DNA of 64,000 nt from Patescibacteria group bacterium (GTDB lineage Bacteria > Patescibacteriota > Microgenomatia > UM-FILTER-40-11): the NCBI GenBank assembly GCA_035530075.1, contig DATKVM010000002.1, forward strand, positions 24,818-88,817, in the 5' to 3' direction. The position numbers were made by a program, and so were the translations under genes. The first letter of the stretch is position 1; the number at the start of each line of letters is the position of its first letter. Positions 2,104 to 63,711 of this stretch are shown in pieces. The notes below the pieces were generated by a model. That model searched no databases, was not told the origin of the DNA, and worked only from the letters and a program-made list of their open reading frames with translations.

Positions 2104-2129
2104 TCATTTAAGCATAGCTTGATTTTCAA

Positions 2130-2600: not shown

Positions 2601-2606
2601 TTTTAC

Positions 2607-4305: not shown

Positions 4306-4309
4306 TTTC

Positions 4310-5715: not shown

Positions 5716-5718
5716 CCT

Positions 5719-8733: not shown

Positions 8734-10440
8734 CTAGTCCTGACCGACTCGCAACACTTCCTCTAAACTCGTCGTCCCCTCTATTGCTTTCAGATAACCG
8801 TCTTGCTTAAGAGTAATCATCCCTTCGGCAATGGCCGTTTTCTCAATATCGAGAGCCGCTGAATGCTCGATTACTAACCGGGCCACTTTCTCTGTCACCG
8901 GCAGGACTTCAAAAATCCCAATCCGACCGAAATAGCCCGTATTATTACACTCGGGGCAGCCCTTACCGCGGCTTAAAAGAAGCTTCCCGTCGCTTTTCAA
9001 GGGAAAGAGGGAGCCCAAAACTGTTTCGATGCCTGCCCGAACATCAGGTGGTGGTTCAAAGGTTTCCTTGCAACTAGCACAAATCCGACGGCAGATTCGC
9101 TGAGCGACAATCGCCGTTAAAGTAGAAGCGAGCAGAAAAGGTTCGGCTCCCATATCTAATAATCGGGGCATCGCCTGAGAAGCACTTTTTGTGTGAATCG
9201 TGGAAAAAACTAAGTGGCCAGTTAACGAAGCTTGAATCGCCAAATCGGTCGTCTCTCGATCGCGGATTTCCCCGACCATAATAATGTTCGGATCCTGCCG
9301 CAAAAAAGACCGCAAACCAGAAGCAAAGGTTAATCCGGCACCCGGATTAATTTGCACTTGATTGACGCCGAGAATCTGGTATTCAACCGGATCCTCAAGG
9401 GTAACAATATTGACTTTGGTCGTGTTAATCTTGGAAAGAATCGAGTAAAGAGTGGTCGTTTTCCCGCTTCCCGTCGGTCCACAGATAAGGATAATCCCAT
9501 GCGGTCGCAAGATAGCATCTTCCAGGTTTTTTAAGGCCCGGCCGCGCAAACCAAGCTCCAGCAATGTCGGCACTCCGCCACTTTTTTTCAAAAGCCGCAT
9601 CACGATTTTCTCACCGTGAACCGTAGGTAGGGTAGAAACACGCAAATCCACCTCTTGGCCGTCGGCCTTAAAATTAAAGCGGCCGTCTTGAGGAATCCGC
9701 TTTTCGTCAATTTTCATCCCCGTTAAAACCTTAATCCGAGAGACCAACGCTTCATGCACGCTTTTAGGCAAAACTAATTTTTCGTGCAAAATACCGTCAA
9801 TCCGGTAACGAATCCGGGTTTTTTCAGCTGACGGTTCAATGTGAATATCCGAGGCGCGGGAGCGGATCGCAAATTCTAAAATGGTGGAGACAATTTTAGC
9901 AATCGGCTCCCGGCGAATAACTTCAGCGTCACGAGTAATATCCAGGGTTTTCTCTTGGCCGACGGCTGTCTCTTTCAAAGCCGCCGTAACTTCCGTGGTT
10001 AAATTTTGAGAATACCGCTCATTAATCGCCCGGTTAATATCTTCCGCCAGAGCCAGATAGACTTTAATTTTCTTACCGGCTTTGGCTTCGATAAATTCAA
10101 TCGCCTCCAAATCCCAAGGGTTAGCAAAAGCGACGGATAACTCTTTACCATCGCCGGAAATAGCAAAGGGGATTAAATTAAATCTTTCGGCAACCGACTT
10201 GGGGACAAGAGCTAAAACTTCCGGAGCCGACCCGACTTCCTGCAGGCCAACAAAGGGAATATTAAAAAGTTCTCCCTTGACCTTGGCGATTTCTTTTTCC
10301 TCCACCCCTCCCAGTTTTTTTAGGATTTCCTCTTCTGGCCGGCCGGAGGCGGCAAACTCTAACTTAACCTTTTCCGCCTGTCCGGGAGTTAAAAGTTTTT
10401 TTGTGAGAAGAAGCTTTGTTATACTTAGGGAATCGGGCAT
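8734..10440 (-). CDS. pilB: type IV pilus assembly ATPase PilB (GspE family)
   Basis: 568 aa. Has an N-terminal GSPII-E_N-like region, Walker A GPTGSGKTTT, a tetracysteine CxxC...CxxC and the GspE signature. Confidence 0.9.
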   Translation of the reverse strand: MPDSLSITKLLLTKKLLTPGQAEKVKLEFAASGRPEEEILKKLGGVEEKEIAKVKGELFNIPFVGLQEVGSAPEVLALVPKSVAERFNLIPFAISGDGKELSVAFANPWDLEAIEFIEAKAGKKIKVYLALAEDINRAINERYSQNLTTEVTAALKETAVGQEKTLDITRDAEVIRREPIAKIVSTILEFAIRSRASDIHIEPSAEKTRIRYRIDGILHEKLVLPKSVHEALVSRIKVLTGMKIDEKRIPQDGRFNFKADGQEVDLRVSTLPTVHGEKIVMRLLKKSGGVPTLLELGLRGRALKNLEDAILRPHGIILICGPTGSGKTTTLYSILSKINTTKVNIVTLEDPVEYQILGVNQVQINPGAGLTFASGLRSFLRQDPNIIMVGEIRDRETTDLAIQASLTGHLVFSTIHTKSASQAMPRLLDMGAEPFLLASTLTAIVAQRICRRICASCKETFEPPPDVRAGIETVLGSLFPLKSDGKLLLSRGKGCPECNNTGYFGRIGIFEVLPVTEKVARLVIEHSAALDIEKTAIAEGMITLKQDGYLKAIEGTTSLEEVLRVGQD

Positions 10441-10477
10441 TACTCATTATTATGGTAAAAGTAAGCGGTAAAAGTCA

Positions 10478-11200
10478 ATGACAGGCAAAATGGTTTTAGC
10501 CACTCAACTTCCCAGTCTTTTAATCGCTGGCGGCCATAAGCAAGCCAGAGAGGAAAAGGTTGAAGAGATTATTGGCCAAAGTTTAATCAGCGCGGCCAAA
10601 ACCCCGGACTATCTTTTGCTTTCCTCAACCCCAAATATTGGCATTGAAGAAGTCAGAAACTTACAGCGTTTTTTACAATTTAAACCTTTTCAAGAGAAAC
10701 AAAAAATTGCCTTAATCCAAGAGTCGCAAAACTTAACTTTGGAGGCTCAAAACGCTCTCCTCAAAACCCTGGAGGAGCCACCAAGCCATTCTCTTATTAT
10801 TCTGACCGCTCCCAATGCTTCTCTACTTTTACCGACGATTGTTTCCCGCTGCGCCGTAATTCAACTCTCGCAAGCAGCGCCGGCCATCTTGGCCGATAAA
10901 GAAATGACGGCAATCAGTCAATCTTTGACAAAACTGCTGACCGCTTCCGTCGGAGAAAGATTGACGCTGGGGGAAAGTCTCAACCTTTATAAAGACCGGG
11001 AGAGCAGCCTAACTTGGCTCGACAAGCTAACCCTCGTTACTCGCCAACAAATGCTAACGGCAAGTAAAAAGGGTAAAGGTCAATTGACTTGGCTCTCCCT
11101 TCTTAAGGCCATTAACCGCGCCAAAAGATACCTTCGAGCTAACTGCAATGTCCGCCTGACCATGGAGGTTTTTTTAAGCGAGATTAGCCATTTGTTTTGA
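10478..11200 (+). CDS. holB: DNA polymerase III delta-prime-like clamp-loader subunit (short form)
   Basis: LIILTAPNASLLLPTIVSRCAVIQL carries the SRC motif in a degenerate AAA+ fold. 240 aa. Confidence 0.6.
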   Translation: MTGKMVLATQLPSLLIAGGHKQAREEKVEEIIGQSLISAAKTPDYLLLSSTPNIGIEEVRNLQRFLQFKPFQEKQKIALIQESQNLTLEAQNALLKTLEEPPSHSLIILTAPNASLLLPTIVSRCAVIQLSQAAPAILADKEMTAISQSLTKLLTASVGERLTLGESLNLYKDRESSLTWLDKLTLVTRQQMLTASKKGKGQLTWLSLLKAINRAKRYLRANCNVRLTMEVFLSEISHLF

Positions 11201-11304
11201 ACCTAAATCCGGTTGTTTTTTGCCTGCAAATTTGCTAAAATTAACTCATCTTTGATATTGTGATAAATGTTAAATAGAGAGGGGAAGAACTTCTTCCGCG
11301 ATAA

Positions 11305-13281
<1,977 letters not shown>

Positions 13282-42124: not shown

Positions 42125-43033
42125 TTAAGCGTTGAATTTAAATTCAATAATATCTCCTTCTTTTACGAAGTAATCTCTTCCTTCAAGTCTGACTTTCCCT
42201 GTCTCCGCCGCGCCTTTCCATCCCCCACTTTCCACCAATTCCTCAAACCCCACTACTTCTGCCTTAACAAACCCTTTGGCCATATCAGTATGGACCTCTC
42301 CGGCTGCATCAAGGCTGGTTTTCCCTTTTTGCAGGCTCCAGGCGCGGACCTCCTTTCCTCCTTTAATCGTATAAAAAGTTATTAAGCCCAGGAGCTGATA
42401 TGCTTTTTTGATTAATTTGTCCAAACCGCTTTCTTCGATTCCCATTTCTTTAAGATACTGTTTTCTCTCTTCTGAAGAAAAATCTGCCAAGTCTGCCTCC
42501 AGTTTGGCGCAAACAGGCACTAGTTCAACTTCTTCCTCTCCCACCTTAATCCTAGACGGCCATTTTTGGTCTTTTAGTTGATCTTCAGAAACATTAAGAA
42601 CATAAATCGTCGGCTTTTTGATTCCCCCCAACTGAAGCTCAATATTCACTATCTCAATATCCCTTCTGGGATCAATTGTCTCATAATAATGGCTGACATC
42701 AGGATTGGTAAACATCCGGACAATATGAACAATGGCCGCTACCTCTCTTATCTTTCCCAAAAATTGATTTCCCAGTCCTTCTCCTTTATGAGCGCCTTTA
42801 ATTAAACCAGCAATATCAATAAATTCCACTGAAGCAGGAGTGGTTGTTTGGGGTTTTATTAGTTGAGAGAGTCTTTCTAATCTTTCATCAGGAACCGGAA
42901 CAATGCCCACATTTGGCTCAATGGTGGTAAAAGGAAAGCTCTCGACCTTGGCCATTTGCCGAGAAAGCAAGGCATTAAACAAGGTGGATTTCCCGGCATT
43001 AGGAAGACCGACTATCCCCAAAGAAAGACTCAT
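42125..43033 (-). CDS. ychF: ribosome-binding ATPase YchF (Obg-family GTPase/ATPase), short form
   Basis: GIVGLPNAGKSTLFNAL, a DIAGLIKGA switch, NxxD variant and a C-terminal TGS domain GDIIEFKFN. Confidence 0.88.
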   Translation of the reverse strand: MSLSLGIVGLPNAGKSTLFNALLSRQMAKVESFPFTTIEPNVGIVPVPDERLERLSQLIKPQTTTPASVEFIDIAGLIKGAHKGEGLGNQFLGKIREVAAIVHIVRMFTNPDVSHYYETIDPRRDIEIVNIELQLGGIKKPTIYVLNVSEDQLKDQKWPSRIKVGEEEVELVPVCAKLEADLADFSSEERKQYLKEMGIEESGLDKLIKKAYQLLGLITFYTIKGGKEVRAWSLQKGKTSLDAAGEVHTDMAKGFVKAEVVGFEELVESGGWKGAAETGKVRLEGRDYFVKEGDIIEFKFNA

Positions 43034-43958
43034 AATTTCCTCTCAACAATTTAGCAATTAATAGCGAAATTAGACTTAAAGCTTAAATCTAATTTCGTCT
43101 AACAAAATATACTTCACATTGATCACTCAATGAAAATCTCTCTGGTTCTGAAAAACTATTTCCCATCGATTTTAAAACGGCATCCGTCCCCTGATCAGTA
43201 TAAGTAAAATTGTCAAAAAGAACTCCGCCCCTAAACACTAACAATCTAAAATATTCTTCTAGCACTCTTGGCTCATAACGCGTTGCCCCAAAAAAATCAT
43301 AAATTAAAGAAAAACTTCCGCTTGCAAAGGGAGCCTCCCGGGCATCAAACCGGAGGTATGGAATGTTACCCCCCGACTGTAATTTTGCAATATCTCCACA
43401 AACCAACTGATAAGGATCGCCAAGAGCACTTCTAAGTCTTTTTTCAACACTCGCATTGTTTGAAGCTGGGGACAAAATGCGTATTTTATCATTACCTGAC
43501 AGAGGCAAAGAAAGTCCTTGGATAACCTTGGATAATGCTACAATTTCCTCTTCATTTAGACTGGACGACCAATTTTCCAAACTTCCCCCACGAGAATAAG
43601 TATTTACAAGATATTCTGCTAAATCATCCATAAACTAAAGTATAGCAAAATTTATATATCTTTTAAAAAAACAAAATCTTTTCTATTATAAATTTCTCCT
43701 TGCCTTTATAAAAAATGCCAATCAATTGCTTTCGATTCAATTTTGACATAAATAAAATAGTGAAATGATGTGTGGGTATATTTTGTTATTAGACAAAAAT
43801 AGTTGTTGCCTCCGGAACCTTAGCTTTAACAATTCTGCCCAAGTAATCTCTCTGAAGAATTTCCCTTGCTTTATTTTTCTTTGGAAGCACTAGTTTGAAG
43901 TAAAAATCAAAAGTAGGGGCAGTGAAAAGTGAATCCCGATAGAAAGTGACATATGAAA
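43015..43958. repeat. direct repeat copy A (about 0.95 kb): ychF 5' end, paralog A gene and about 330 bp upstream
   Basis: Three blocks are near-identical to copy B: 43015-43046, 43089-43150 (about 60/60) and 43876-43958 (about 90%). The coding middle has diverged. Confidence 0.8.
43089..43631 (-). CDS. small class-I methyltransferase-fold protein (degenerate motif I), paralog A
   Basis: FDAREAPFASGSFSLIYDFFGA...LEEYFRLLVFRGGVLFD matches methyltransferase motifs post-I, II and III. The Gly-rich motif I is not conserved (IRILSPASNNAS). About 50% identical to 46217..46810. Confidence 0.6.
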   Translation of the reverse strand: MDDLAEYLVNTYSRGGSLENWSSSLNEEEIVALSKVIQGLSLPLSGNDKIRILSPASNNASVEKRLRSALGDPYQLVCGDIAKLQSGGNIPYLRFDAREAPFASGSFSLIYDFFGATRYEPRVLEEYFRLLVFRGGVLFDNFTYTDQGTDAVLKSMGNSFSEPERFSLSDQCEVYFVRRN

Positions 43959-44021
43959 CCATTTTACTTCCTATTTAGCTTAAATTACAGCTCTTCTCTG
44001 AGATAAGAGGGAGGTTGTTAG

Positions 44022-46076
44022 CTATCCCAAATTCAAATCTCTGGTTTGCAGAATCCAAATCTGTCCTTCCTTATCTATAGCCCACTCTATATCCTGTGGG
44101 GTTTCACCAAACTCAGATCTTAAGCGTTCCGACAGCATAAACAAAGCTTTTGCCTCTGAAGGAGAAAGAATCTTTGGTCCTTTTTGTTCAATTACACGCC
44201 TCTCAGAGCGAGAAAATTTATATCGCTCAACATCCTTCGCTTCTCCCGAAACTATTCCTTCACCTAAGCCTTCATTCGCCTCTATCTCAACTATATCCAG
44301 GTTTTTGGTCTGCACATTCACACCAAAAATCACGCCCGCACACCTGGCTGGAACCATTTCTTGAACAACAACTGCCATTTTGAGTTTCGCAACAAGACTT
44401 GAGTTTTCTTTCAGATACCTCTCGATCTTTAGCGAGAATGCTGAACGGACAACTTCAAGCATTTTCAGAGAAAGAGCTTCTCCAGAAACATTCAAAAAAG
44501 TATCAAACATCCCTGCCATAGAATTCTTACTATCATCTTCTATGGTTACCGAGGAACGAACAGCAAACACCTTACCCGATTTTATGTAATCGGCTAAAAC
44601 TTTATTCACAAGGTCAATCACATCTCTATCAGGATCCTTAAGTTGTTCATAAATCTTCGGAAAATCTTCAATAGAAACAGGGCTAGAAAAACCCAGTTTC
44701 TTAATAATTTCATCAAACGACAAAGTTGTAAGAACCGCTCCATGTGGAACCTGAAAACCCAAAATTTTAAGCTTAGAAAGCCTATCTGCCTTCCCGCCAC
44801 AGAGCTCCACCCCAAGCAAAGATGCATCCCAAAGTGAAACGTATTGTTGAGATTGTGTTCGGGACAAATTGGTCACTCTAACTTTTCCATTAGTAACCAC
44901 AATCTGTGCTTCATCTCCATTCTCAAATTTTTGATTTCCAACAAGAAAAGCCTTATGACCTTTATCAGTTAACACTCTCATCGCATGCTGTGTAGCAGCA
45001 ACCCCAGGATAAAGCACATAGAGTTTATCCTTCCAAACCGCAAGAGCTCCCAAGATGTCATAATTACGATTACTGATTATTTGTTCGCTTATTTTTACAA
45101 TAACTTTCCCAGAAAGCAGATCTTCTGACGGAACCTGTGCGAGTTTGTGAAAATCCTCCACATTCTTGATTACTCTTACAATACCCTTTATCCGCAAATT
45201 CTTGTCGCTCTCTTCTTTTGCCTCTTTCCAGTAATCTGCCACTTCGTTGAAACAAATACCATTCTCGTCTGTTGAAAATTCAACTCTCTGAGAACCATAT
45301 TTTTGAGAAAGTTCATGGACGACTCTGGCTACTTCCGTAATCTCCGAATCAGAAAGCACCTGATCAAACTGCATGTCTACAGGAACTTGAAATAGCTTTG
45401 CCCCAGACTCTTTTGTGGTGCAAAGCATCAAATTCTTTTGCGGTATCTCCTTGCGAATAATGAAGCCTCGATTTTGTTTAAACTCTATCTCATATCTATC
45501 TGCCACCAAAGATTGCACGCCTTCATTAATTCCAAAAACTGCATAAATAGTTACCCTTCCATTTTCTGATATTCCATAACCACCGTAGGGAATCAAAGCA
45601 GAATGGGGATCCTTGTTAAATTTTTCAATGTCCAAAACTGTAGATGGAGGCTCTATCCACCCGCTTATCTGATTTCCATTTACTTCATGATATTTTTGTT
45701 CTATTGCAAACTGGAAAAGGTCTTTTATGGCAGTTGTAACTTTTTCTGGAGTTGTTAAACCAAGAAAGCGGGGCCCTGGAGGATTTTCAAGGCCAGGCAC
45801 TACAAAGGCCCTACGAACTAATGCTGCATGTGAAGCACTTTCTTCAATTACTTTCTTCGCAGCAGCCTCAGCCTCACTAATAAATTCTTGAGGTAATTCT
45901 CTGTGTTTTAAAAAATACTTAAATATGTCTAAGGGAAAAACATATATATTAACTATCCGAGCACGAACTTCCTCTAATTTCTTCCAGCCATCTATCCTTG
46001 GATTTGGAAGTAAATATTCTGATGGTGAGATTAAATTTTTCATAGTAAAAAATAGGTTTGGGTATGATTTCCCCAA
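44022..46076 (-). CDS. PEP-utilising phosphotransferase with permuted domains: partial ATP-grasp half, phosphohistidine swivel domain, then a complete PPDK_N ATP-grasp
   Basis: The C-terminal 260 aa match the PpsA N-terminal ATP-grasp (FAVRSSVTIEDDSKNSMAGMFDTFLNV; PQDIEWAIDKEGQIWILQTRD). The middle PGVAATQHAMRVLTDKGHKAFLVG matches the swivel domain [21 protein letters not shown]. The N-terminal third resembles a second ATP-grasp half. Confidence 0.75.
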   Translation of the reverse strand: MGKSYPNLFFTMKNLISPSEYLLPNPRIDGWKKLEEVRARIVNIYVFPLDIFKYFLKHRELPQEFISEAEAAAKKVIEESASHAALVRRAFVVPGLENPPGPRFLGLTTPEKVTTAIKDLFQFAIEQKYHEVNGNQISGWIEPPSTVLDIEKFNKDPHSALIPYGGYGISENGRVTIYAVFGINEGVQSLVADRYEIEFKQNRGFIIRKEIPQKNLMLCTTKESGAKLFQVPVDMQFDQVLSDSEITEVARVVHELSQKYGSQRVEFSTDENGICFNEVADYWKEAKEESDKNLRIKGIVRVIKNVEDFHKLAQVPSEDLLSGKVIVKISEQIISNRNYDILGALAVWKDKLYVLYPGVAATQHAMRVLTDKGHKAFLVGNQKFENGDEAQIVVTNGKVRVTNLSRTQSQQYVSLWDASLLGVELCGGKADRLSKLKILGFQVPHGAVLTTLSFDEIIKKLGFSSPVSIEDFPKIYEQLKDPDRDVIDLVNKVLADYIKSGKVFAVRSSVTIEDDSKNSMAGMFDTFLNVSGEALSLKMLEVVRSAFSLKIERYLKENSSLVAKLKMAVVVQEMVPARCAGVIFGVNVQTKNLDIVEIEANEGLGEGIVSGEAKDVERYKFSRSERRVIEQKGPKILSPSEAKALFMLSERLRSEFGETPQDIEWAIDKEGQIWILQTRDLNLG

Positions 46077-46216
46077 CTCTATGCCTCAATTTTAATCCAC
46101 GGCCTGTTAATTAGCAATTACTGGAGGCTCAGAATGAACAATCCTCCCCATCTTATCCCTCTCCATGATAATTCTCGATTTTCTTGGGCTTGGGAGGATG
46201 AAGTCAAACTTGAAGT

Positions 46217-46810
46217 CTAAGAATGAGGTTGCGTAAGTTCTATCCCCAAAGAAAGACTCATAATTTCCTCTTTACGTCTAACAAAATATACTTCACATTG
46301 ATCACTCAATGAAAATCTCTCTGGTTCTGAAAAACAATCCTCCATTGATTTCAAAACCTCATCAGTCCTCGGAGAGGTATAAGTGAAATAGTCAAGAATA
46401 ACTCCGCCACCAGGCACTAACAATCTGAAATATTCTTTTAATGCTTCTGGATCGTAATATGCTGCTCCCAAAAAATCGCAAATTAAAGAGAAACTCTTAT
46501 CAGCGAAGGGGACCTTCCTGGCATCTAAATGAATAAACGTCTCTTTATCTACAGGTTTTACTAAGGAAATATCCCCACAAACTAGTTGGTAAGGAGCTCC
46601 TAAGCACTCTGCAAGTCTTCTTTCAAACCCTGCTTTGTTTGCAGAGGGTGATAAGATTCGTATCTTGTTTTCGCCCGATAGAGGCAAAGAAAGCCTTTTA
46701 ATAAACTCAGATAATGCTTGGGTCTCTTCCTCATTTCTTAAACTTTCCCAATTTTCAAGAACTCCACCAGGAGAATATTGCCATATAATGTTTTCTGTTG
46801 CCTTGTCCAT
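46217..46810 (-). CDS. small class-I methyltransferase-fold protein, paralog B, with a captured ychF N-terminus at its C-terminus
   Basis: FADKSFSLICDFLGA...LKEYFRLLVPGGGVILD. The C-terminal IMSLSLGI repeats the YchF start MSLSLGI. Confidence 0.6.
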   Translation of the reverse strand: MDKATENIIWQYSPGGVLENWESLRNEEETQALSEFIKRLSLPLSGENKIRILSPSANKAGFERRLAECLGAPYQLVCGDISLVKPVDKETFIHLDARKVPFADKSFSLICDFLGAAYYDPEALKEYFRLLVPGGGVILDYFTYTSPRTDEVLKSMEDCFSEPERFSLSDQCEVYFVRRKEEIMSLSLGIELTQPHS

Positions 46811-46932
46811 TAATATATTATAGCAAAGTATTTAAAAACTCTTCACTCTTTTTCTTCGGAAGCACTAATTTGAAGTAAAAATCAAAAGTAGGGGCAGTGA
46901 AAAGTGTATCCCAATAGACAGTGACATATGGC
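46237..46932. repeat. direct repeat copy B (about 0.7 kb), lacking the 45-bp palindrome found in copy A
   Basis: See copy A. Here the ychF fragment (atgagtctttctttggggata, reverse strand) is fused to the paralog B reading frame. Confidence 0.8.
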
Positions 46933-46976
46933 AATTATACTTGAATTAAGGCTGAAACGGTAGTTTTCCCAAGTGC

Positions 46977-47459
46977 TTAAGGGGCATCGCTTGAAGTGCA
47001 ATGACGAATAAATTCTTCCTTTGTACTTAAAGTTGTCTTCACTAAACAATCCTTACCATCGCTAGTTGCTTGATAGAAAAAATCTGCTTTAGTGTCCGGA
47101 TCCACGGGAATCTCCTTTAAATAACCTTTTTGCTGAACTTCAATTATACTTGTTGGACACTGTCCGATATCTAAACAAAAACGTCTCGCCTGAGTAGATA
47201 TTTCTTGTACTCCCGCCCTCCTAATTGCATCCCTAGCACTTGATAACTGATTTTTAGGCGAAGTAAAAACTAACATCAAAGAAACTAAGATTCCCAAAAG
47301 GGGTACTCCCAGTCCTATCCCCGTAACCCACCACTTCGCTCTTTTACTCCAGGGGGCAATAAACCACATAACGATAAGCCCAATAAGGAAGGTCGGAACA
47401 AACAAAAGAAGAATAATAGTTACCCAACTACGCCAATCCTGGTACCACTTTTTTCCCAT
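46977..47459 (-). CDS. pseudopilin-like membrane protein (GspG/pilin-type C-terminal domain) with an atypical double-TM N-terminus
   Basis: The C-terminus GYLKEIPVDPDTKADFFYQATSDGKDCLVKTTLST resembles the PxDPWG...Y.Y..DG pseudopilin fold. Two N-terminal TM helices. Confidence 0.4.
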   Translation of the reverse strand: MGKKWYQDWRSWVTIILLLFVPTFLIGLIVMWFIAPWSKRAKWWVTGIGLGVPLLGILVSLMLVFTSPKNQLSSARDAIRRAGVQEISTQARRFCLDIGQCPTSIIEVQQKGYLKEIPVDPDTKADFFYQATSDGKDCLVKTTLSTKEEFIRHCTSSDAP

Positions 47460-47471
47460 AATTCTATTGAA

Positions 47472-47801
47472 TCACCACCAAGGGATAATTGCAAATATGT
47501 CAGGAAATAGTTCTACTAGGGTCATCCAAACGGCAACAAAAATAACCACCCAACCCGCAAGTTTATAAACTTTTAGTTTTTGCTGAAGAAAAAGCCAGGC
47601 CATGCTTAGTAGAAAAAAATTAAAAATTATCAAAAAGGGAAATTTTGACTTTATATTCCATCGTTCGATTAAATATATCACCAAAAGCAAGAGAAAAATT
47701 GTAGACCGACCTAGCAACCTTACAACAATCAAAACTGGATTTTTCGTTTTAGGCCATCTGAATTTCTGGTCTGAATTGTCTCTATTTTCCATATATCTCA
47801 A
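47472..47801 (-). CDS. small membrane protein, 109 aa
   Basis: Three hydrophobic helices. Confidence 0.45.
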   Translation of the reverse strand: MRYMENRDNSDQKFRWPKTKNPVLIVVRLLGRSTIFLLLLVIYLIERWNIKSKFPFLIIFNFFLLSMAWLFLQQKLKVYKLAGWVVIFVAVWMTLVELFPDIFAIIPWW

Positions 47802-47820
47802 CTTCCCATAATACCACTAA

Positions 47821-47850
47821 TAGCTTACTTGAGGCTAAAAGACGAGGCTC
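47821..47850. promoter_or_regulatory. 30-nt conserved motif copy 1 (TAGCTTACTTGAGGCTAAAAGACGAGGCTC), a candidate operator
   Basis: 28 of 30 positions match 48791..48820. On the minus strand it lies just upstream of a TGgTATTAT -10-like box for gene 47472..47801. Confidence 0.45.
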
Positions 47851-48573: not shown

Positions 48574-48790
48574 ATTAACCCACCTCCTTTGCTCTCAGTG
48601 TTATGAATATATATTCATTATATCAGGCAACAAAGCTTTGTCAAGCAGTCAATTAAAACTCAAATTATGGCATTATGGAGTGGGCTATCCCCCCCTTTTT
48701 CATCTCTCTTGGTTAATCTTCTGAAGTTAAAAAATATCGATTCCGACTTAAACTATCCCAATTGAAAAGCTTGACATAGTAGGCCAATCA

Positions 48791-48820
48791 TAGCTTACTT
48801 GAAGCTAAAAGACGAGGTTC
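48791..48820. promoter_or_regulatory. 30-nt conserved motif copy 2 (TAGCTTACTTGAAGCTAAAAGACGAGGTTC)
   Basis: It sits about 13 nt upstream of GATATAAT (48831-48838) and the ATG at 48847. That places it over the -35 region of a probably leaderless methyltransferase mRNA. Confidence 0.45.
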
Positions 48821-58076: not shown

Positions 58077-58985
58077 GTGGTCTTCGTGAAGAAGAGAACT
58101 TGGGCGAGCATCCTCTTGGTTATCGGAACCGTGATTACTCCCCTAGCCATTATTACCCTCTGGCTTAATAGCACCCTTCTTAACACCAATCAATATGTTG
58201 CCACGATCGCCCCTTTAAGCAAAAATCAGGCGATTGCCTCCGACCTGGCCGACAGTCTGGCCAACCGAGTCTTTACTCAAGTGCCAGTTCAGCAGGAAAT
58301 CAGCGCGGCCATACCTGTCAGCTTTCAATTCCTCGCCCCAATTTTGACTCAAGCGCTAAAAAATTTCTTCACCCAGGAAACGGAGGCCCTAATCACCTCC
58401 GATCAATTCAATCAAGTTTGGATTAGCCTAAACCGCTTTGCCCACGAGCAAATCGTGGCTCTTTTAACCGGTCAAGGGGGGGCTTTGGTGACCAAGAACG
58501 GTCAAGTAACCCTCGATCTTCAGGCAATCTTTGACCAGGTTAAGACTCGCCTCTCTCAAAAAGGCATCACTCTTTTTCAAAATGTCACTTTATCTGCGGA
58601 AAACAACCAGGTGGTATTGTTTCAATCGCAATTTTTAGCCCAAGCCCAAAGTTTCATCAGTCTTATCGCCAAGCTCAGGATTATTCTCCCGATTTTGGCA
58701 CTGGCGGCTTTTATTTTCGGAATAATACTTTATTCAAATTATGCCCGAGGATTATTCTGGACAGGAATTGGCTTACTGCTCGTCGGAATTGCTTTAATAA
58801 TTATTATCGCTATCGCCCGCTCCTCTTTCCCGTCTTACACCCCAAATTTATCTCCCACTGCCTCCGCCGCTTTTTATGATACGATTGTCCGCTATCTGCA
58901 AAATGCCGCCTGGATTACAATTACCGTCGGTTTAATCCTGACCCTGGTCTTCTTCTTTATCTCCAGAAGGGAAGCTAAATCTTAA
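58077..58985 (+). CDS. membrane protein, unknown function
   Basis: An N-terminal TM, a soluble middle and two C-terminal TM helices. No motif recognised. Confidence 0.5.
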   Translation: MVFVKKRTWASILLVIGTVITPLAIITLWLNSTLLNTNQYVATIAPLSKNQAIASDLADSLANRVFTQVPVQQEISAAIPVSFQFLAPILTQALKNFFTQETEALITSDQFNQVWISLNRFAHEQIVALLTGQGGALVTKNGQVTLDLQAIFDQVKTRLSQKGITLFQNVTLSAENNQVVLFQSQFLAQAQSFISLIAKLRIILPILALAAFIFGIILYSNYARGLFWTGIGLLLVGIALIIIIAIARSSFPSYTPNLSPTASAAFYDTIVRYLQNAAWITITVGLILTLVFFFISRREAKS

Positions 58986-58996
58986 CGCGAAAAGGT

Positions 58997-59025
58997 CAGA
59001 AACTTTTGGGGAGAGAAAGCAAGGG
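58997..59025. repeat. intergenic repeat family 1, copy A (TCAGAAACTTTTGGGGAGAGAAAGCAAGGG)
   Basis: One of four near-identical 28-30-nt copies; the others are at 59753, 60218 and 60869. Confidence 0.8.
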
Positions 59026-59029
59026 CTTG

Positions 59030-59620
59030 TCAAACCCTTGGGCAGACATCGACAATATCAGAATTTTTCAAAAGAACTGTCTTGTCGGTTGTGTAAATTA
59101 ATCCTTTGTTGGGCTTAATTTCAAAACCCAAATAAACAATTTTTACTTTTCTTTTTTTAAGCTCAGTTACCGCTGGCTGTAAATCAGAATCAGAGCTACA
59201 AAGAATAGCGGTATCAATCTCCTTGCCACAAGCCAAAGAAACCAAATCAACGGCAATTTTAACATCCACTCCTTTTTCCCTAAAGATAACTTTTTTGTGC
59301 CCATTAATGGTTACTGTTTGGCCACGAACATTGCCTGCCATAATAAAAGTAAAGCCTTGTTTTTCCAAATTCGTTCTTAATCTCCGCTGGAAATTAACTA
59401 GTTCCTTTGACTTTTTAAGAGTCTCTTTGTTCTCGTGTAGCCGAGCCCCATAAAAAAACATTTTCGACAATTTATAATCTGAAAGGCGCTTCCCGAAGAG
59501 CTCTTTTAAATTAATCCGAGCAAGATCAATCTTAGCTTCACTAATTTTTCTCGCTTCTAGAACTTCTTCGACTTTGTGAAGAAAATTTTCTCCGTCAATG
59601 AAAAGAAAGGTTTTGGGCAT
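59030..59620 (-). CDS. NYN-domain (LabA/DUF88-like) protein
   Basis: FLFIDGENF...GVDVKIAVDLVSLAC...AILCSSDSDLQPAV, with NYN/PIN-like acidic residues. Confidence 0.7.
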   Translation of the reverse strand: MPKTFLFIDGENFLHKVEEVLEARKISEAKIDLARINLKELFGKRLSDYKLSKMFFYGARLHENKETLKKSKELVNFQRRLRTNLEKQGFTFIMAGNVRGQTVTINGHKKVIFREKGVDVKIAVDLVSLACGKEIDTAILCSSDSDLQPAVTELKKRKVKIVYLGFEIKPNKGLIYTTDKTVLLKNSDIVDVCPRV

Positions 59621-59752
59621 CTCGCCTATTATGCCACAAAAAACCTCGCCGAGCTAGAAGCAAAGGCGAGGCGTTGATAATCCAAATATACCCCACTAAC
59701 AGGCGCCTGTCAAGGACTGAACTGGCACAGTTTGGTATATTTGAAAAATAGG

Positions 59753-59780
59753 GAGAAATTTTTGGGAGAAAAAGCAAGGG
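59753..59780. repeat. intergenic repeat family 1, copy B
   Basis: GAGAAATTTTTGGGAGAAAAAGCAAGGG. Confidence 0.8.
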
Positions 59781-59786
59781 ATTCTT

Positions 59787-60188
59787 TTAGGTTTTGGGTT
59801 GATTTAAAAGTTCGTCGAGAATATGATTTTTTGGCTCTCTTTCGGCATAGTATTCTCGCCAGTTGGGATCAAATTCATCTAAAAGCAGCTTAATCGGTTT
59901 GCCCAATTTAATCGCGTGATGCATTTCGTTTAAAGGGCCATGAGAAACACCAAAAAGCCAAAATTCATCAGCGATTTCCACCAACCTTAAACAAAACTCC
60001 CAGGTTCTCGCTTTCCCGATCGGTCCGCCTTCATATCGGGCAAATGGCAATGCTTGAAAAGGATGAAGAGGACCTTTCCCTTCTTTGGTTACCTCGTCCA
60101 TTTGCTTCTCAACGTCTGAAGGATCCTTAATCAGTCTTGAAGGAACAGCCATGTAAACAAGGTTTGCTTTACTCTCTGGATTAAGCAT
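59787..60188 (-). CDS. DUF4406-like protein (nucleoside 2-deoxyribosyltransferase-like fold)
   Basis: KANLVYMAVPS...LFGVSHGPLNEMHHAIKLGKPI resembles the YLAGP...GT.FE.G.A.A.GKP pattern. Confidence 0.45.
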   Translation of the reverse strand: MLNPESKANLVYMAVPSRLIKDPSDVEKQMDEVTKEGKGPLHPFQALPFARYEGGPIGKARTWEFCLRLVEIADEFWLFGVSHGPLNEMHHAIKLGKPIKLLLDEFDPNWREYYAEREPKNHILDELLNQPKT

Positions 60189-60217
60189 ATTAATAAGTTA
60201 ATCTTACCACAACAAGG

Positions 60218-60247
60218 CCAGAAATTTTTGGGGAGAGAAAGCAAGAG
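60218..60247. repeat. intergenic repeat family 1, copy C
   Basis: CCAGAAATTTTTGGGGAGAGAAAGCAAGAG. Confidence 0.8.
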
Positions 60248-60296
60248 ACTCTCTAGCCTTCGCACTCGACGAGTGTGAAGGCTAACACTTTTTTAA

Positions 60297-60785
60297 TTAA
60301 TCCCGCCCTGTAAACGGAATAGTTCTCCATCCTTTGCCTGTTTCTTCTCTGGCTTGAGCCTCTTTTCCATTCAATAAAGAATGATAACTTTTAACCATAT
60401 TTCCCAGTACCCTTATTGGACTACCCTCTGTGCTGTCTTGATTAAAAGCTACTCCTTGGACAAAACGACCTAAATCCCGAGCGATATCAAACACGTGCCT
60501 TTCTAAATTCGGCGGATAACCAATACAACCAGGGCCAAAGTTTTCTCTTAGATCTACAAAAACTTGTCTTGCAACAAAGCATGAGGCCATAAGTTCATCG
60601 CTAGCTACTCCCGCTAAATCACGAATCTCTAGGCCTGTTTTCAACTTGTTTTGGGGGTCTAACAATTCTTCCATCTCAAAAAAAGCTTCCATACTCCCTT
60701 TGGCCATCTCTTGTGAAAGCCTACCCATGCTCGTGGCAAAGGACTGACTTACCTCTTGAATTTTTGCCTGTTCTATCGTTGTCAT
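60297..60785 (-). CDS. hypothetical protein. The start is reassigned to the ATG at 60785, which has GGAGGTGG 6 nt upstream.
   Basis: The upstream sequence caagagaggaggtggaaaaATG gives MTTIEQAKIQEV. No family recognised. Confidence 0.5.
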   Translation of the reverse strand: MTTIEQAKIQEVSQSFATSMGRLSQEMAKGSMEAFFEMEELLDPQNKLKTGLEIRDLAGVASDELMASCFVARQVFVDLRENFGPGCIGYPPNLERHVFDIARDLGRFVQGVAFNQDSTEGSPIRVLGNMVKSYHSLLNGKEAQAREETGKGWRTIPFTGRD

Positions 60786-60868
60786 TTTTCCACCTCCTCT
60801 CTTGATAAAAATACTGCCCCTTAAGGCAGTTTTGTTGTCATTATAGCATAATCCCACATAGCCCAAAG

Positions 60869-60896
60869 TCAGAAGTTTTTGGGGAGAGAAAACAGG
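60869..60896. repeat. intergenic repeat family 1, copy D
   Basis: TCAGAAGTTTTTGGGGAGAGAAAACAGG. Confidence 0.8.
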
Positions 60897-60953
60897 ATGC
60901 GATTCAAATATACCAAAAGCTAACTTTTTCTTAATCTCAAATTTTTCTTGAAA

Positions 60954-62104: not shown

Positions 62105-62163
62105 TAAGAATCTTTGGGGGCTATGGTTGGGGAATTATGGGGTATGGAGTTTCTGCTTTTTCT
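62105..62163. repeat. intergenic repeat family 2, copy E
   Basis: TAAGAATCTTTGGGGGCTATGGTTGGGGAATTATGGGGTATGGAGTTTCTGCTTTTTCT. Confidence 0.8.
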
Positions 62164-63100
62164 AAATGAGGACTACTTCCTTGGGCCCAAAATCAGTGTA
62201 ACTTTTGACTGTCTTTCCCACCTGGAGTCGAGGGTCGCTTTGGTAAAGAGCTAAGATTTCGGCAAAAGAGCTGTCATCTTCTCTCGAGGTTAAAGTAGCA
62301 ATTTTGTCAATCAATTCCAGTTCACTTTTGGCCAGTACGGACAAATCTTTAAAATGTTTATCCATAAATTTCGTGTAGTCCCAAGGCAGAAGTTCAATTT
62401 TATTCAAGGCTGCTAAATCACGGAAGACGCTTCCCCTCATAAACCAAAATCCCTGAACCAAAGTCTCGTTTATGCCAAATAAGTTAGCGTCCATCTTCCC
62501 CGCCCGGCAAATGTTCCAAGCTTTTCCAGATGGCATAAATTGATCTCTCGTTAAATCTAGCGGATTAATTGTTATCCTATACGTTTCAATCTCTTCCTTA
62601 CCCACCTCCGGATCAACTAAAATCCATTGCTTTTTTATCCCATCCCAATACTCACAAACCCAATGATCCCAAAAGTAGCCAGGAAGAAAGTAAGTCGCAA
62701 AACCACTGCGAAGGCGGGCAGGAACACTTTTTTGCCTTAAAAACGAACAAAGCAGTAAAGCAAAATCGCGACAAGTGCCAACAAACCTTTTTTTCGGTGA
62801 TCGAGTCTTAGCCAACGGAGAATCATCCAGTTCGATAATTCTAGCCAAAATTTCTTCAATATACCGAGTATTTGATTCAAGGATCCTATCTCTAGACAGC
62901 TTAAAACCATAGAGATCTTCGGTATTATTTTTATGGATAATCAGCCCGTGAATCACCTTACATAAATCAGCCACTAAATTAGGTAACTGATTCAACAGCG
63001 GGGCATATCTTCCAGGGTTGGTCACCGAGCTTTGGGTTGAATAATATTTTTGGGGACTAACTGGCTTTTTCATTAATATCATTATAGCTGACAAAGCCAA
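62162..63100 (-). CDS. transglutaminase-like cysteine protease superfamily protein
   Basis: Cys in GTCRDFALLL, His in DHWVCEYW and Asp in ILVDPE form a C-H-D triad with core spacing. Confidence 0.6.
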   Translation of the reverse strand: MALSAIMILMKKPVSPQKYYSTQSSVTNPGRYAPLLNQLPNLVADLCKVIHGLIIHKNNTEDLYGFKLSRDRILESNTRYIEEILARIIELDDSPLAKTRSPKKRFVGTCRDFALLLCSFLRQKSVPARLRSGFATYFLPGYFWDHWVCEYWDGIKKQWILVDPEVGKEEIETYRITINPLDLTRDQFMPSGKAWNICRAGKMDANLFGINETLVQGFWFMRGSVFRDLAALNKIELLPWDYTKFMDKHFKDLSVLAKSELELIDKIATLTSREDDSSFAEILALYQSDPRLQVGKTVKSYTDFGPKEVVLI

Positions 63101-63168
63101 ATTTTATGTCTAAGAAAATTTTGAGGCTATGGGGAAGAAATTATGGAATGAGGTTTTTACTTTTTCTT
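63096..63168. repeat. intergenic repeat family 2, copy F
   Basis: CCAAATTTTATGTCTAAGAAAATTTTGAGGCTATGGGGAAGAAATTATGGAATGAGGTTTTTACTTTTTCTT. Confidence 0.8.
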
Positions 63169-63618
63169 GGTGAGCTTGATGTTGCCGACTTCTGTCATCC
63201 CTTCTTGCTCAAAGCCCAAGCTCTCGTAAAACTTTGTCAGCCAAGGCTCTTTGGGACTGTGGGTAACGGAAAAGTATTGATATTCCGGCGGATAATCCTG
63301 CTTTAAGGCAAACTCAACTAATCTTTCGCCTATCCCCTGCCGGCGAAACTCTTCTTTGACGAATAGTTCATCAAGAAAGATTGAATTGGGAAAGTGAGGA
63401 TGAGTTTTGTCCAACAGCCGGACCAGAAGATAGCCAACTGATTTTGAGTCAGATAAAGCCACGAAGAGAAGCTTCTCTTCCAAGGCCAACTTTAGTTTTA
63501 CCCCTTCTTCCTTGGCCTCATTTTTTGAAAGTTGTCGGCCATAGTAAGCCTGAAGCTCAAGCATCAGCTGATAAATTTCCTCTAGCTGTTCCAAAACCGC
63601 AACTTTAATCTCAACCAT
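63157..63618 (-). CDS. GNAT-family N-acetyltransferase
   Basis: EFRRQGIGERLVEFAL is an acetyl-CoA-binding motif A (Q/RxxGxG/A). Confidence 0.8.
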   Translation of the reverse strand: MVEIKVAVLEQLEEIYQLMLELQAYYGRQLSKNEAKEEGVKLKLALEEKLLFVALSDSKSVGYLLVRLLDKTHPHFPNSIFLDELFVKEEFRRQGIGERLVEFALKQDYPPEYQYFSVTHSPKEPWLTKFYESLGFEQEGMTEVGNIKLTKKK

Positions 63619-63640
63619 AAGGAAATTGTATCCTATCGAG

Positions 63641-63711
63641 CCAAATTTTGTGTAGGATTTTTGGGGGCTATGTTTGGGGAATTATGGGTTAGGAAGTTTT
63701 TGCTTTTTCTT
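63641..63711. repeat. intergenic repeat family 2, copy G
   Basis: CCAAATTTTGTGTAGGATTTTTGGGGGCTATGTTTGGGGAATTATGGGTTAGGAAGTTTTTGCTTTTTCTT. Confidence 0.8.

What the first reader, a model, noticed from the sequence alone, without database searches (positions are those of the whole stretch)
43015..46932. Direct repeats of about 0.7-0.95 kb bracket the kinase gene, and the distal copy captured the first 21 nt of ychF
Seen in sequence: three blocks of copy A (43015-43046, 43089-43150, 43876-43958) are nearly identical to blocks in copy B (46237-46268, 46266-46327, 46850-46932). The coding middle has diverged to roughly 50% amino-acid identity.

Copy B starts exactly at codon 8 of ychF. As a result, ORF 46217..46810 ends with IMSLSLGI, a fossil of the YchF N-terminus MSLSLGI.

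Copy A carries a 33-nt hairpin (43060-43092, CGAAATTAGAC...ATCTAATTTCG) that copy B lacks.

Inference: the pattern suggests either a duplication followed by insertion or replacement of the 2.3-kb kinase segment, or ongoing gene conversion that homogenises only the ends. Either way it marks recent structural plasticity immediately upstream of an essential gene.
Basis: seen in the sequence. Interest (0 to 1): 0.55.

Follow-up and report, generated by a model that had tools for sequence, protein, structure and literature searches.

The report
Gene-cassette array at the ychF start
The two repeats are real, but they are two cassettes of a three-cassette array at the start of the essential gene ychF, a layout found in dozens of related uncultivated bacteria and apparently not described before.

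Summary
Two colinear copies of a methyltransferase-like (MT) gene flank a PPDK_N kinase gene just upstream of ychF. Their interiors are old (61% aa identity, dS about 1.2). Their ends are near-identical: 82 nt at 94%, a 61-nt run at 100%, and 32 nt at 100% that include the ychF ribosome site, ATG and 22 nt of coding sequence. The same layout occurs in at least nine independent ENA and JGI assemblies, so it is not an artefact.

The ychF start occurs four times in 4 kb, not twice. Each extra copy heads a conserved "unit": the ychF promoter and first 7 codons, fused to about 130 nt that encode a roughly 55-aa small ORF in the -1 frame. This unit is a family with 35 protein clusters and 223 metagenome matches. 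It lies upstream of ychF on the same strand, singly or in arrays of 2-4 or more units. The cargo between units differs from genome to genome (methyltransferases, NUDIX, APH, GNAT and others).

The window therefore holds an array: unit-MT-B, unit-kinase, unit-MT-A, ychF. No integrase and no attC-like hairpin was found. I favour homologous recombination and gene conversion at the repeated units. A recombinase acting in trans is not excluded.

The parts
42125..43033 (-). ychF (302 aa; starts MSLSLGIVGLPNAGKST). It is the anchor gene at the proximal end of the array and is followed by rpsF-ssb-rpsR.
   Evidence: Pfam MMR_HSR1 + YchF-GTPase_C. The downstream synteny is conserved in relatives.
43012..43043 (-). 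Copy A of the 32-nt core: SD (AGAGGAAATT), ATG and 22 nt of ychF. This is the working ychF start.
   Evidence: 100% identical to 46240-46271.
43044..43097 (-). Segment present only in copy A (49 nt). It holds a 15-bp AT-rich hairpin (43065-43097) that overlaps the MT-A stop codon. Possibly a terminator or attenuator.
   Evidence: Alignment gap in copy B. Fold -21.2 kcal/mol, z = -3.1. Listed as terminator-like. Single copy in the window.
43089..43631 (-). MT-A, a 180-aa methyltransferase-like cargo gene (proximal cassette). Its last 61 nt (43096-43156) are identical to those of MT-B.
   Evidence: Family search: only the two paralogues among 5.8 billion sequences and 44 distant relatives.
43789..43974 (-). 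Unit w3: ychF-start fossil (ATG at 43952) plus an intact 57-aa small ORF (43962..43789).
   Evidence: HMM E = 3.7e-24. It is database protein P0119, a member of a 35-cluster family.
44022..46099 (-). Kinase cargo: a 673-aa protein (ATG at 46043) with a C-terminal PPDK_N ATP-grasp domain and no PEP-utilizer domain detected, plus 56 nt of its own upstream sequence.
   Evidence: Pfam PPDK_N 3e-50. Best PDB hits are the chains deposited as 'phosphoenolpyruvate synthase' 5hv6/5fbs. Nucleotide homology to L004 spans exactly 46099-44025. Homologues at 83-40% identity lie in unrelated contexts.
46107..46271 (-). Unit w2: copy B of the 32-nt core (46240-46271, ATG at 46261) plus a diverged arm of another subtype. 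The arm has no in-frame start codon, because a TAA lies directly upstream.
   Evidence: tblastn/HMM E = 6.9e-27. Its closest relatives are the L010 units at 53-54% aa.
46217..46810 (-). MT-B, a 197-aa paralogue of MT-A. It has lost its stop codon and reads through the ychF fossil (…EEIMSLSLGIELTQPHS*).
   Evidence: Weak Pfam Methyltransf_11 match.
46821..46957 (-). Unit w1, truncated: a promoter-like stretch (…AGCCTTAATTCAAGTATAAT), a ychF-start fossil (ATG at 46927) and the first half of the arm. The 82-nt block B is 46849-46930.
   Evidence: HMM E = 2.1e-07, profile positions 2-24 only. 94% identical to w3. The upstream stretch resembles that of L010a.

Best explanation
On the minus strand the region reads: p160 | unit w1 - MT-B | unit w2 - kinase | unit w3 - MT-A - hairpin | ychF.

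A unit is a copy of the ychF promoter and start (about -45 to +21) fused to a roughly 130-nt arm. The arm encodes the rest of a conserved small ORF of about 55 aa in the -1 frame.

They sit on either side of a kinase cassette of a different lineage.

Shown:
- There are four ychF starts and three units.
- The unit family is widespread and linked to ychF.
- Cargo differs between genomes.
- The arm is under coding constraint.
- The MT interiors are old and their ends are young.

Inferred:
- Cassettes are gained, lost and duplicated by recombination between these repeated segments. Routes could include unequal crossing-over, exchange with DNA from relatives using a unit and ychF as homologous flanks, and gene conversion.
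- The right edge of every event falls at ychF codon 8 because homology between a unit and ychF ends there.
- The 61-nt + 32-nt identity is a recent conversion or recombination tract that ran to that edge.
- The 49-nt hairpin indel came later, and it removed the MT-B stop codon.
- Cargo lands behind a ychF-type promoter.
For: **In the window**
- Four ychF-start motifs in 4 kb against 0.03 expected.
- Three unit copies found by HMM.
- w1 and w3 are one arm subtype; w2 is another.
- The kinase segment shared with L004 is gene-sized and ends at the unit borders.
- dS is 1.17 in codons 1-159 and 0.09 in codons 160-180.

**Elsewhere**
- 35 small-protein clusters.
- 223 metagenome stretches encode a relative; 80 loci were fetched.
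- Where ychF is present in a locus, the units lie upstream of it on the same strand.
- 15 of 19 loci with at least 5 kb of downstream sequence have ychF there.
- The distance from the last unit to ychF runs from 119 nt ('empty', L097/L099) to about 5 kb.
- 19 of 80 loci hold 2-4 units at E<=1e-6, and up to six in L153 at a looser threshold.
- Cargo differs in each genome. About 78% of cargo genes are co-oriented with ychF. They are dominated by small-molecule-modifying enzymes, with no recombinase family among those reported.

**Anatomy of the unit**
- The unit profile aligns to real ychF only from about -45 to +21/+32.
- Fossil codons vary at the third position of the ychF frame; arm codons vary at the third position of the -1 frame.
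- Some fossils copy the local YchF N-terminus. L141 has MSSTLEVGI and MSQLEVGIV beside the real MSSNLEVGIVG. On average a fossil scores 5.7 against its own ychF and 0.9 against others.

**Recombination in this population**
- Strain variant L158 is a mosaic: 100%, then 94%, then unrelated.

**Not an artefact**
-.
Against: - No direct evidence of the recombination events themselves. No excision circle or deletion variant was seen in the contigs available.
- In other arrays the nearest relative of every arm (31 of 31) lies in another genome. Within-array duplication, as proposed for w1/w3 and MT-A/MT-B, is therefore unusual.
- The one cassette shared by two genomes (L153/L144) has homology that begins after the arm and ends about 10 nt into the next fossil. 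Cassette borders are therefore not simply 'unit to unit'.
- A homology of about 37 nt is short for RecA-type exchange.
- 31 of 81 units lack any in-frame start codon for the arm. Its function, and even its translation, remain unclear.
- The origin of the first unit is unexplained.
Confidence: 0.6

Rival explanations
1. A dedicated site-specific recombinase, encoded elsewhere in the genome, inserts circular cassettes at the ychF start. This would be an integron-like or att-site system. The core ATG…GGGAT is the crossover site, and the arm is a recombinase-binding or accessory module.
For: - The junction position is sharp and constant: the arm starts right after GGGAT in 58 of 81 units.
- Arrays consist of mostly single-gene, co-oriented cassettes.
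- The cargo spectrum resembles that of integron cassettes.
- ychF is a known target of serine-recombinase pipolins in Actinobacteria (PMC11551731).
- The 5' flank of copy A would supply in-frame TTG codons to arm w2 in a hypothetical circle (read).
Against: - No integrase, resolvase or transposase was reported among 82 cargo proteins. None was reported among ten further checked cargo proteins or the recurrent flanking families. One search showed only 25 of its 53 matched families. None appears in the precomputed Pfam hits for +/-10 kb of the window locus.
- No attC-like conserved hairpin: RNAalifold gave -4.6 kcal/mol with 0 covarying pairs.
- No units in 2.9 million viral contigs.
- The arm shows protein-coding, not site-like, conservation.
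Confidence: 0.2
2. A one-off event private to this genome: a tandem duplication of the MT gene with its flanks, followed by a chance insertion of the kinase gene between the copies.
For: The two copies are colinear and gap-free over 540 nt of coding sequence. The kinase has homologues in unrelated contexts, so it was imported.
Against: - It does not explain why the 'upstream' block carries its own ychF fossil.
- It does not explain why a third unit of a different subtype precedes the kinase exactly at the fossil/arm junction.
- It does not explain why the same unit heads different genes upstream of ychF in dozens of other genomes.
Confidence: 0.1
3. The near-identical ends are kept alike by purifying selection on functional DNA (promoter, ribosome site, small ORF), not by gene conversion.
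For: The 82-nt block is part of a small ORF that is highly conserved across genomes: about 80% nt identity between w3 and the L071 unit (a by-eye comparison, not computed), with 1.2-2.0 bits per column. The 32-nt core holds the SD and the start of an essential gene in copy A.
Against: - In copy B the core is only a read-through tail of MT-B. Arm w2 has no start codon there, so nothing obvious selects for 32/32 identity.
- The 61-nt run lies in MT coding sequence, where synonymous sites elsewhere are near saturation (19/20 against 49/87 identical codons).
- No promoter-like site is predicted in that run.
- There is no general conservation upstream of -45 across units.
Confidence: 0.12
4. Assembly artefact: two strain alleles of one MT locus were chained through short shared sequences.
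For: Several contigs end in or beside the repeats: L003 at 46345, and L156-L160, L164 and L165.
Against: - The exact runs (61 and 32 nt) are shorter than the k = 141 suggested by the contig names.
- The full arrangement is recovered at 99.97-100% identity in separate ENA analyses and in a JGI contig from another pipeline.
- Junction sequences are unique.
Confidence: 0.02

Closest known systems
Chromosomal integron cassette arrays (IntI / attI / attC)
   Same: Tandem, mostly single-gene, co-oriented cassettes stacked at one fixed chromosomal point. A repeated boundary element lies between cassettes. Cargo is variable, often small-molecule-modifying or unknown, and differs between close relatives.
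   Different: No IntI or any other recombinase was found in or beside the arrays. The boundary element is not an imperfect palindrome: it is a copy of a host gene's promoter and start, fused to a protein-coding arm. The array is anchored at the 5' end of a housekeeping gene.
Integrative elements that target the end of a conserved gene and rebuild it (tRNA/tmRNA islands; SXT/R391 in the 5' end of prfC, from my own knowledge; serine-recombinase pipolins at ychF, PMC11551731)
   Same: Each insertion leaves a direct repeat of the target gene's end and keeps the gene intact. Successive insertions give tandem arrays separated by target fossils. ychF itself is a documented target.
   Different: Those elements are 10-100 kb and carry their own integrase. 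Here the modules are 0.6-3 kb, usually one gene, without an integrase, and each carries a conserved small ORF next to the fossil.
Minimal mobile elements / replacement islands exchanged by homologous recombination in conserved flanks (Neisseria MMEs; my own knowledge)
   Same: Different gene cassettes sit between the same conserved flanks in related genomes. No mobility genes are present. Exchange by host recombination after DNA uptake is plausible, since CPR bacteria are predicted to be competent and the window carries pilin-like genes.
   Different: MMEs do not build tandem arrays with a repeated copy of a flank's 5' end. Here the upstream flank is itself a partial duplicate of the downstream gene.
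Concerted evolution of paralogues by gene conversion (e.g. tufA/tufB; my own knowledge)
   Same: Paralogues with patchy identity: exact tracts beside regions with saturated synonymous divergence.
   Different: Here the tracts lie at the cassette ends and stop exactly where homology to ychF ends.

Membership tests
Integron | IntI-type tyrosine recombinase gene adjacent to the insertion site | tested here: not met
   The precomputed Pfam hits for +/-10 kb of the locus show none. No recombinase family was reported among 82 cargo proteins (only 25 of 53 matched families were shown) or among 10 further checked ones. Recurrent flanking families have no such domain.
Integron | attC sites: imperfect inverted repeats that fold as hairpins at each cassette boundary | tested here: not met
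   RNAalifold on 12 diverse units: -4.56 kcal/mol, 8 pairs, no compensatory change. Unit conservation has codon periodicity.
Integron | Array of promoterless, co-oriented single-gene cassettes with variable content | tested here: inconclusive
   Arrays are co-oriented (about 78%), mostly single-gene and variable. However, some cargo carries its own promoter-like upstream sequence: the kinase 56 nt and the L153/L144 cassette.
Site-specific integrative element at a gene end | Direct repeats of the target's end (attL/attR) flanking the insert | tested here: met
   The 32-nt exact repeat 43012-43043 / 46240-46271, plus two older fossils. The same is seen in L010, L013, L077 and L141.
Site-specific integrative element at a gene end | Element-encoded integrase | tested here: not met
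   As for the integron rows. No units in viral contigs. A recombinase acting in trans cannot be excluded.
Tandem paralogues with gene conversion | Colinear homologous copies in the same orientation | tested here: met
   180 aa aligned without gaps at 61% identity. The flanks are colinear apart from two indels.
Tandem paralogues with gene conversion | Significant heterogeneity of synonymous divergence along the copies | tested here: met
   dS 1.17 against 0.09. Identical codons at conserved residues: 49/87 against 19/20. A 61-nt exact run against a 66% background.
Recombination-exchanged replacement island (MME-like) | Same conserved flanks, different cargo in related genomes, no mobility genes | tested here: met
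   The unit upstream and ychF-rpsF-ssb-rpsR downstream are conserved, while cargo is unique to nearly every genome.
Recombination-exchanged replacement island (MME-like) | Exchange demonstrably by homologous recombination after DNA uptake | not testable with these tools
   Only indirect evidence: a mosaic strain variant, L158, and one cassette more similar than YchF between two genomes (85% against 72%).
Class I SAM-dependent methyltransferase (for MT-A/MT-B) | Rossmann-like fold with a glycine-rich SAM-binding motif I | tested here: inconclusive
   Only MT-B passes Pfam Methyltransf_11, barely (23 bits against a cut-off of 21.2, residues 91-138). MT-A has no hit. PDB profile hits have E >= 0.15. 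By eye, motif I reads KIRILSPASNNA, without GxGxG.

The most novel reading that the evidence does not exclude
Microgenomates (CPR) bacteria possess a previously undescribed gene-capture platform anchored at the start of ychF. Cassettes are inserted precisely after ychF codon 7. Each is headed by a copy of the ychF promoter and start fused to a conserved small protein of about 55 aa, which is itself part of the capture or expression machinery. The system works without an integron-type integrase, either through an unknown recombinase acting in trans or through the host's homologous recombination. It would be a functional analogue of integrons in bacteria with minimal genomes.
Probability: 0.3. 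Interest if true: 0.8.

Novelty: new variant of a known kind. Interest (0 to 1): 0.62.

Why it matters
CPR/Patescibacteria have tiny genomes and few recognisable mobile elements, so how they acquire accessory genes is poorly understood. A recurrent, precisely bounded cassette array at an essential gene would be a concrete, testable route for gene gain in this group. Each cassette sits behind a copy of that gene's promoter. The cargo looks like small-molecule-modifying or resistance-type enzymes: APH, GNAT, NUDIX, methyltransferases and an ATP-grasp kinase related to rifampicin phosphotransferase.

The locus also offers a clean natural example of a new small ORF overprinted on a duplicated gene start. 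In addition, the exact ends beside a saturated interior make a textbook case of patchy gene conversion.

For annotation, the small ORF family and the ychF fossils are currently unnamed. They cause read-through calls such as the 197-aa MT-B.

Tried and rejected
- **Known RNAs.** Rfam on the whole window and on three relatives gave only a tRNA and a TPP riboswitch elsewhere. Nothing matched in the units or in the GC-rich insert of L010.
- **Unit as a structured RNA or attC-like hairpin.** No consensus structure.
- **Arm as a frame-shifted remnant of the ychF body.** The unit profile aligns to real ychF only up to +21/+32.
- **Small ORF in known families.** No hit in Pfam, NCBIfam or PHROGs. AlphaFold gives only a confident beta-hairpin at residues 34-48, so no fold search was run.
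- **A 57-aa gene after a kinase homologue in L008.** It looked like a conserved partner of the kinase but is unrelated; only the length coincides.
- **Recombinase hunt.** None was reported among the cargo proteins, the larger cargo proteins, the recurrent flanking families or the Zn-ribbon proteins.
- **Units on phages.** None in IMG/VR.
- **Programmed -1 frameshift from the fossil ATG into the arm.** I saw no conserved slippery heptamer, and the T-run GATTTTTAC varies at synonymous positions (by eye). This is left open.
- **MT or kinase cassettes in other arrays.** None.
- **The hairpin as a repeated element.** It is single-copy in the window.
- **A promoter inside the 61-nt identical run.** None predicted.
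- **Literature.** No paper links ychF with cassettes or CPR insertion hot spots. The only link found is pipolin integration at ychF.
- **First metagenome scan.** The attempt with the broad alignment failed for lack of a conserved stretch and was repeated with the type-I subset.
Full report
**1. What is in the sequence.** All genes in 41-48.6 kb lie on the minus strand. In the direction of transcription the order is:
- a 160-aa ORF (47459..46977);
- block B of the 82-nt repeat;
- MT-B (46810..46217, 197 aa);
- a 673-aa protein with a C-terminal PPDK_N ATP-grasp domain (46043..44022);
- a 57-aa ORF (43962..43789) whose first half is block A;
- an AT-rich spacer;
- MT-A (43631..43089, 180 aa);
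- a hairpin;
- ychF (43033..42125), followed by rpsF-ssb-rpsR.

They are 82 nt at 94%, a 61-nt exact run at the 3' end of the MT genes, and 32 exact nt made of AGAGGAAATT + ATGAGTCTTTCTTTGGGGATAG. Copy A alone has about 225 nt after the 82-nt block and a 49-nt segment with a 15-bp hairpin. Amino-acid identity is 61%, not about 50%. MT-B ends …IMSLSLGIELTQPHS.

**2. More than chance, and not an artefact.** Over MT codons 1-159 nucleotide identity is 66%, dS is 1.17 and dN is 0.33. Over codons 160-180 dS is 0.09. At conserved residues, codons are identical in 49 of 87 cases in the first part and 19 of 20 in the last. Protein-level selection therefore cannot explain the exact run.

The same arrangement at 99.97-100% identity is present in contigs of several ENA analyses and in a 19-kb JGI contig. 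Some contigs break in or next to the repeats.

A tblastn search with the 57-aa ORF found a third, diverged copy at 46265-46122. This lies directly after the '21-nt ychF fossil' and in another frame. The same search found two copies upstream of ychF in the closest GTDB relative, L010 (YchF 76% identical).

Reading the sequences showed that every copy begins with its own ychF-like start:
- w1: ATGTCACTGTCTATTGGGAT;
- w3: ATGTCACTTTCTATCGGGAT;
- w2 and the real gene: ATGAGTCTTTCTTTGGGGAT.

The motif occurs four times in the window, all within this 4 kb, against 0.03 expected. Relatives show the same pattern: MSLSIGE… and MLFLIGIVGLPNA… in L010, MSPSIGIV in L013, MNLSVGIVG in L020 and MNINIGI in L011.

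**4. The unit is a family.** A profile of the arm peptides retrieves 35 clusters of 40-98-aa proteins (mostly 52-62 aa). Their consensus is …Y-E-S-F-C-(R/W)-D…F-D-F-Y-F-K..L-P-K.(R/N)-K-E-R-I-I.E-R-D.L-G-R-I-V-H-S. None matches Pfam, NCBIfam or PHROGs.

A metagenome scan found 223 stretches, of which 80 loci were fetched. In these loci:
- Units lie on the same strand as ychF and upstream of it.
- 15 of 19 loci with at least 5 kb of downstream sequence contain the ychF start.
- The gap from the last unit to ychF ranges from 119 nt (L097/L099, unit directly before ychF) to about 5 kb.
- 19 of 80 loci have 2-4 units at E<=1e-6, spaced 0.6-3 kb. Examples are L141 with four units and then ychF, and L077 with three. 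At a looser threshold L153 has up to six.

Among 61 ychF loci from GTDB species of many phyla, only L010 and loci labelled Shapiro-, Gottesman- and Curtissbacteria carry units. No unit occurs in IMG/VR.

**5. Anatomy of the unit.** An alignment of 81 distinct units shows these conserved features, in order:
- a -10-like TGnTAnAAT 6-9 nt before the fossil ATG;
- the ATG;
- GGGAT;
- about 130 conserved nt.

In the fossil the least conserved codon position is the third position of the ychF frame. From about +75 it is the third position of the -1 frame (0.59 bits against 1.29 and 1.00). Positions +21 to +75 are conserved at all three positions. The -1 frame stays open for 40-57 codons after the D codon in the 62 units whose extract reached a stop; in the other 19 no stop fell within the extract.

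A nucleotide profile of the unit aligns to real ychF genes only from about -45 to +21/+32. The unit is therefore a duplicate of the ychF promoter and first 7-10 codons joined to unrelated coding sequence.

Several fossils copy the N-terminal variant of their own genome's YchF, as in L141. On average a fossil resembles its own ychF 5' end more than those of other genomes. This suggests repeated local sampling of the ychF start.

One point is unexplained. Only 33 of 81 units have an in-frame ATG for the arm, and 31 of 81 have no canonical start at all, w2 included. By contrast the fossil ATG sits at a fixed distance from the arm. AlphaFold gives only a beta-hairpin. There is no consensus RNA or DNA structure.

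**6. Cargo.**
- Between units and ychF, 88 ORFs were collected and 82 were scanned against Pfam. About 78% are co-oriented with ychF.
- Families include methyltransferases, NUDIX, APH, GNAT, histidine phosphatase, NYN, EEP, HNH, AAA_14/DUF4143, a YcaO RiPP cluster and a GH10. No recombinase was seen among the families reported (one search listed only 25 of 53).
- Cargo is almost never shared between genomes.
- The one shared cassette (L153/L144) is 85% identical where YchF is 72%. Its homology runs from its own promoter to about 10 nt into the next fossil.

In the window, nucleotide homology of the kinase segment to its best relative covers 46099-44025 only, that is the gene plus 56 nt upstream. 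Kinase homologues elsewhere are not next to units. The ATP-grasp domain is closest to PDB chains 5hv6 and 5fbs, deposited as 'phosphoenolpyruvate synthase'. From my own knowledge these are Listeria rifampin phosphotransferases. NCBIfam also lists an RPH model among its sub-threshold hits. The MT family is tiny: two members among 5.8 billion sequences and 44 distant relatives among 1.84 billion representatives.

**7. Interpretation.** The window holds a three-cassette array. Between them sits a cassette with a different arm subtype and an imported kinase.

Because a unit and ychF share only about -45..+21, any recombination between them ends at codon 8. This accounts for the sharp right edge of copy B. 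The exact 61 + 32 nt, next to an interior with dS about 1.2, is best read as a recent conversion or recombination tract. The 49-nt hairpin indel followed it and removed the MT-B stop codon.

The 94% identity of w1 and w3 is partly ordinary conservation of the small ORF (about 80% between genomes, by eye). It still stands out, because in other arrays every arm (31 of 31) has its closest relative in another genome.

A strain variant, L158, is identical up to 47472, 94% identical up to 47847 and unrelated beyond. This shows that recombination is active in this neighbourhood.

**8. Mechanism and rivals.** I favour host recombination: unequal crossing-over, exchange with relatives' DNA using the unit and ychF as flanks, and gene conversion. 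No recombinase or hairpin site was found, and the repeated element behaves like coding DNA.

A trans-acting site-specific recombinase remains possible, given the constant junction after GGGAT and the integron-like look of the arrays. ychF is a known target for serine-recombinase pipolins (PMC11551731). A private duplication plus insertion, selection on the ends, and mis-assembly are each contradicted in part or in full, as set out under the rival explanations.

**9. Novelty.** Three full-text searches found nothing on ychF-anchored cassette arrays or on this small ORF. The architecture resembles integrons, gene-end-targeting islands and recombination-exchanged islets, but it fails the defining tests of the first two. 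I file it as a new variant of chromosomal cassette arrays or insertion hot spots, with the mechanism open.

Noticed in passing
window 1067-6276: Six copies of a 44-71-nt repeat. Its reverse complement encodes GFTLIELLVVI…, the N-terminus typical of type-IV-pilin-like proteins. This looks like a cluster of pilin-like genes, relevant to DNA uptake in CPR bacteria.
   Followed up: no
window 47814-47850 and 48784-48820; L158 1-560: A 37-nt promoter-like repeat (89% identical) resembles the stretch in front of fossil w1 and in front of L010a. A strain variant (L158) is 100% identical to the window from 45990 to 47472, 94% identical in 47473-47847 and unrelated beyond 47847. There a Ham1/ITPase-like ORF (identified by eye, no search) adjoins the repeat in place of the window's upstream genes. 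This indicates a recombination breakpoint at the repeat.
   Followed up: partly
window 58978-60897 and 62107-63710: Two further families of 34-59-nt intergenic direct repeats (3-4 copies each, 61-88% identical).
   Followed up: no
L010 6263-6410: A longer ychF fossil (MLFLIGIVGLPNA…) is followed by an 85-nt GC-rich stretch, unusual for this AT-rich genome, and then by a second fossil with its arm. There is no Rfam match.
   Followed up: partly
L008 (kinase homologue at 9665-11689): A 75%-identical homologue of the kinase sits on a contig whose neighbours look archaeal (CDC48, TFIIS-type Zn ribbon, RadA/Rad51, RNA polymerase subunit L). This suggests transfer of the gene between CPR bacteria and archaea, or a chimeric contig.
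   Followed up: no
window 43089-43631 and 46217-46810: Both MT-like proteins lack a recognisable glycine-rich SAM-binding motif I (KIRILSPASNNA / KIRILSPSANKA), and only MT-B barely passes a Pfam methyltransferase model. They may not be active methyltransferases.
   Followed up: partly
81 units from window and loci L010-L153: The small ORF's coding frame (-1 relative to the fossil ATG) lacks any canonical in-frame start codon in 31 of 81 units. The fossil ATG and a 20-21-codon ORF in the ychF frame (MSLSVGIHFSPSQLLIFTSK*) are better conserved in position. This could mean dual coding, frameshifting or many dead copies.
   Followed up: partly
window 43308: A synonymous polymorphism in MT-A between assemblies (T in the window and L001, C in L002 and L003 on the minus strand). 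The window allele equals the base at the homologous position of MT-B.
   Followed up: no
L072, L085 and about 14 similar loci: In one group of metagenome contigs the unit follows CysRS and an aminotransferase. It is followed by a conserved 192-aa protein and small Zn-ribbon proteins (103/147 aa), with no ychF in the 10 kb of downstream sequence fetched for L072 and L085. This is a second, unexplained context for the unit.
   Followed up: partly
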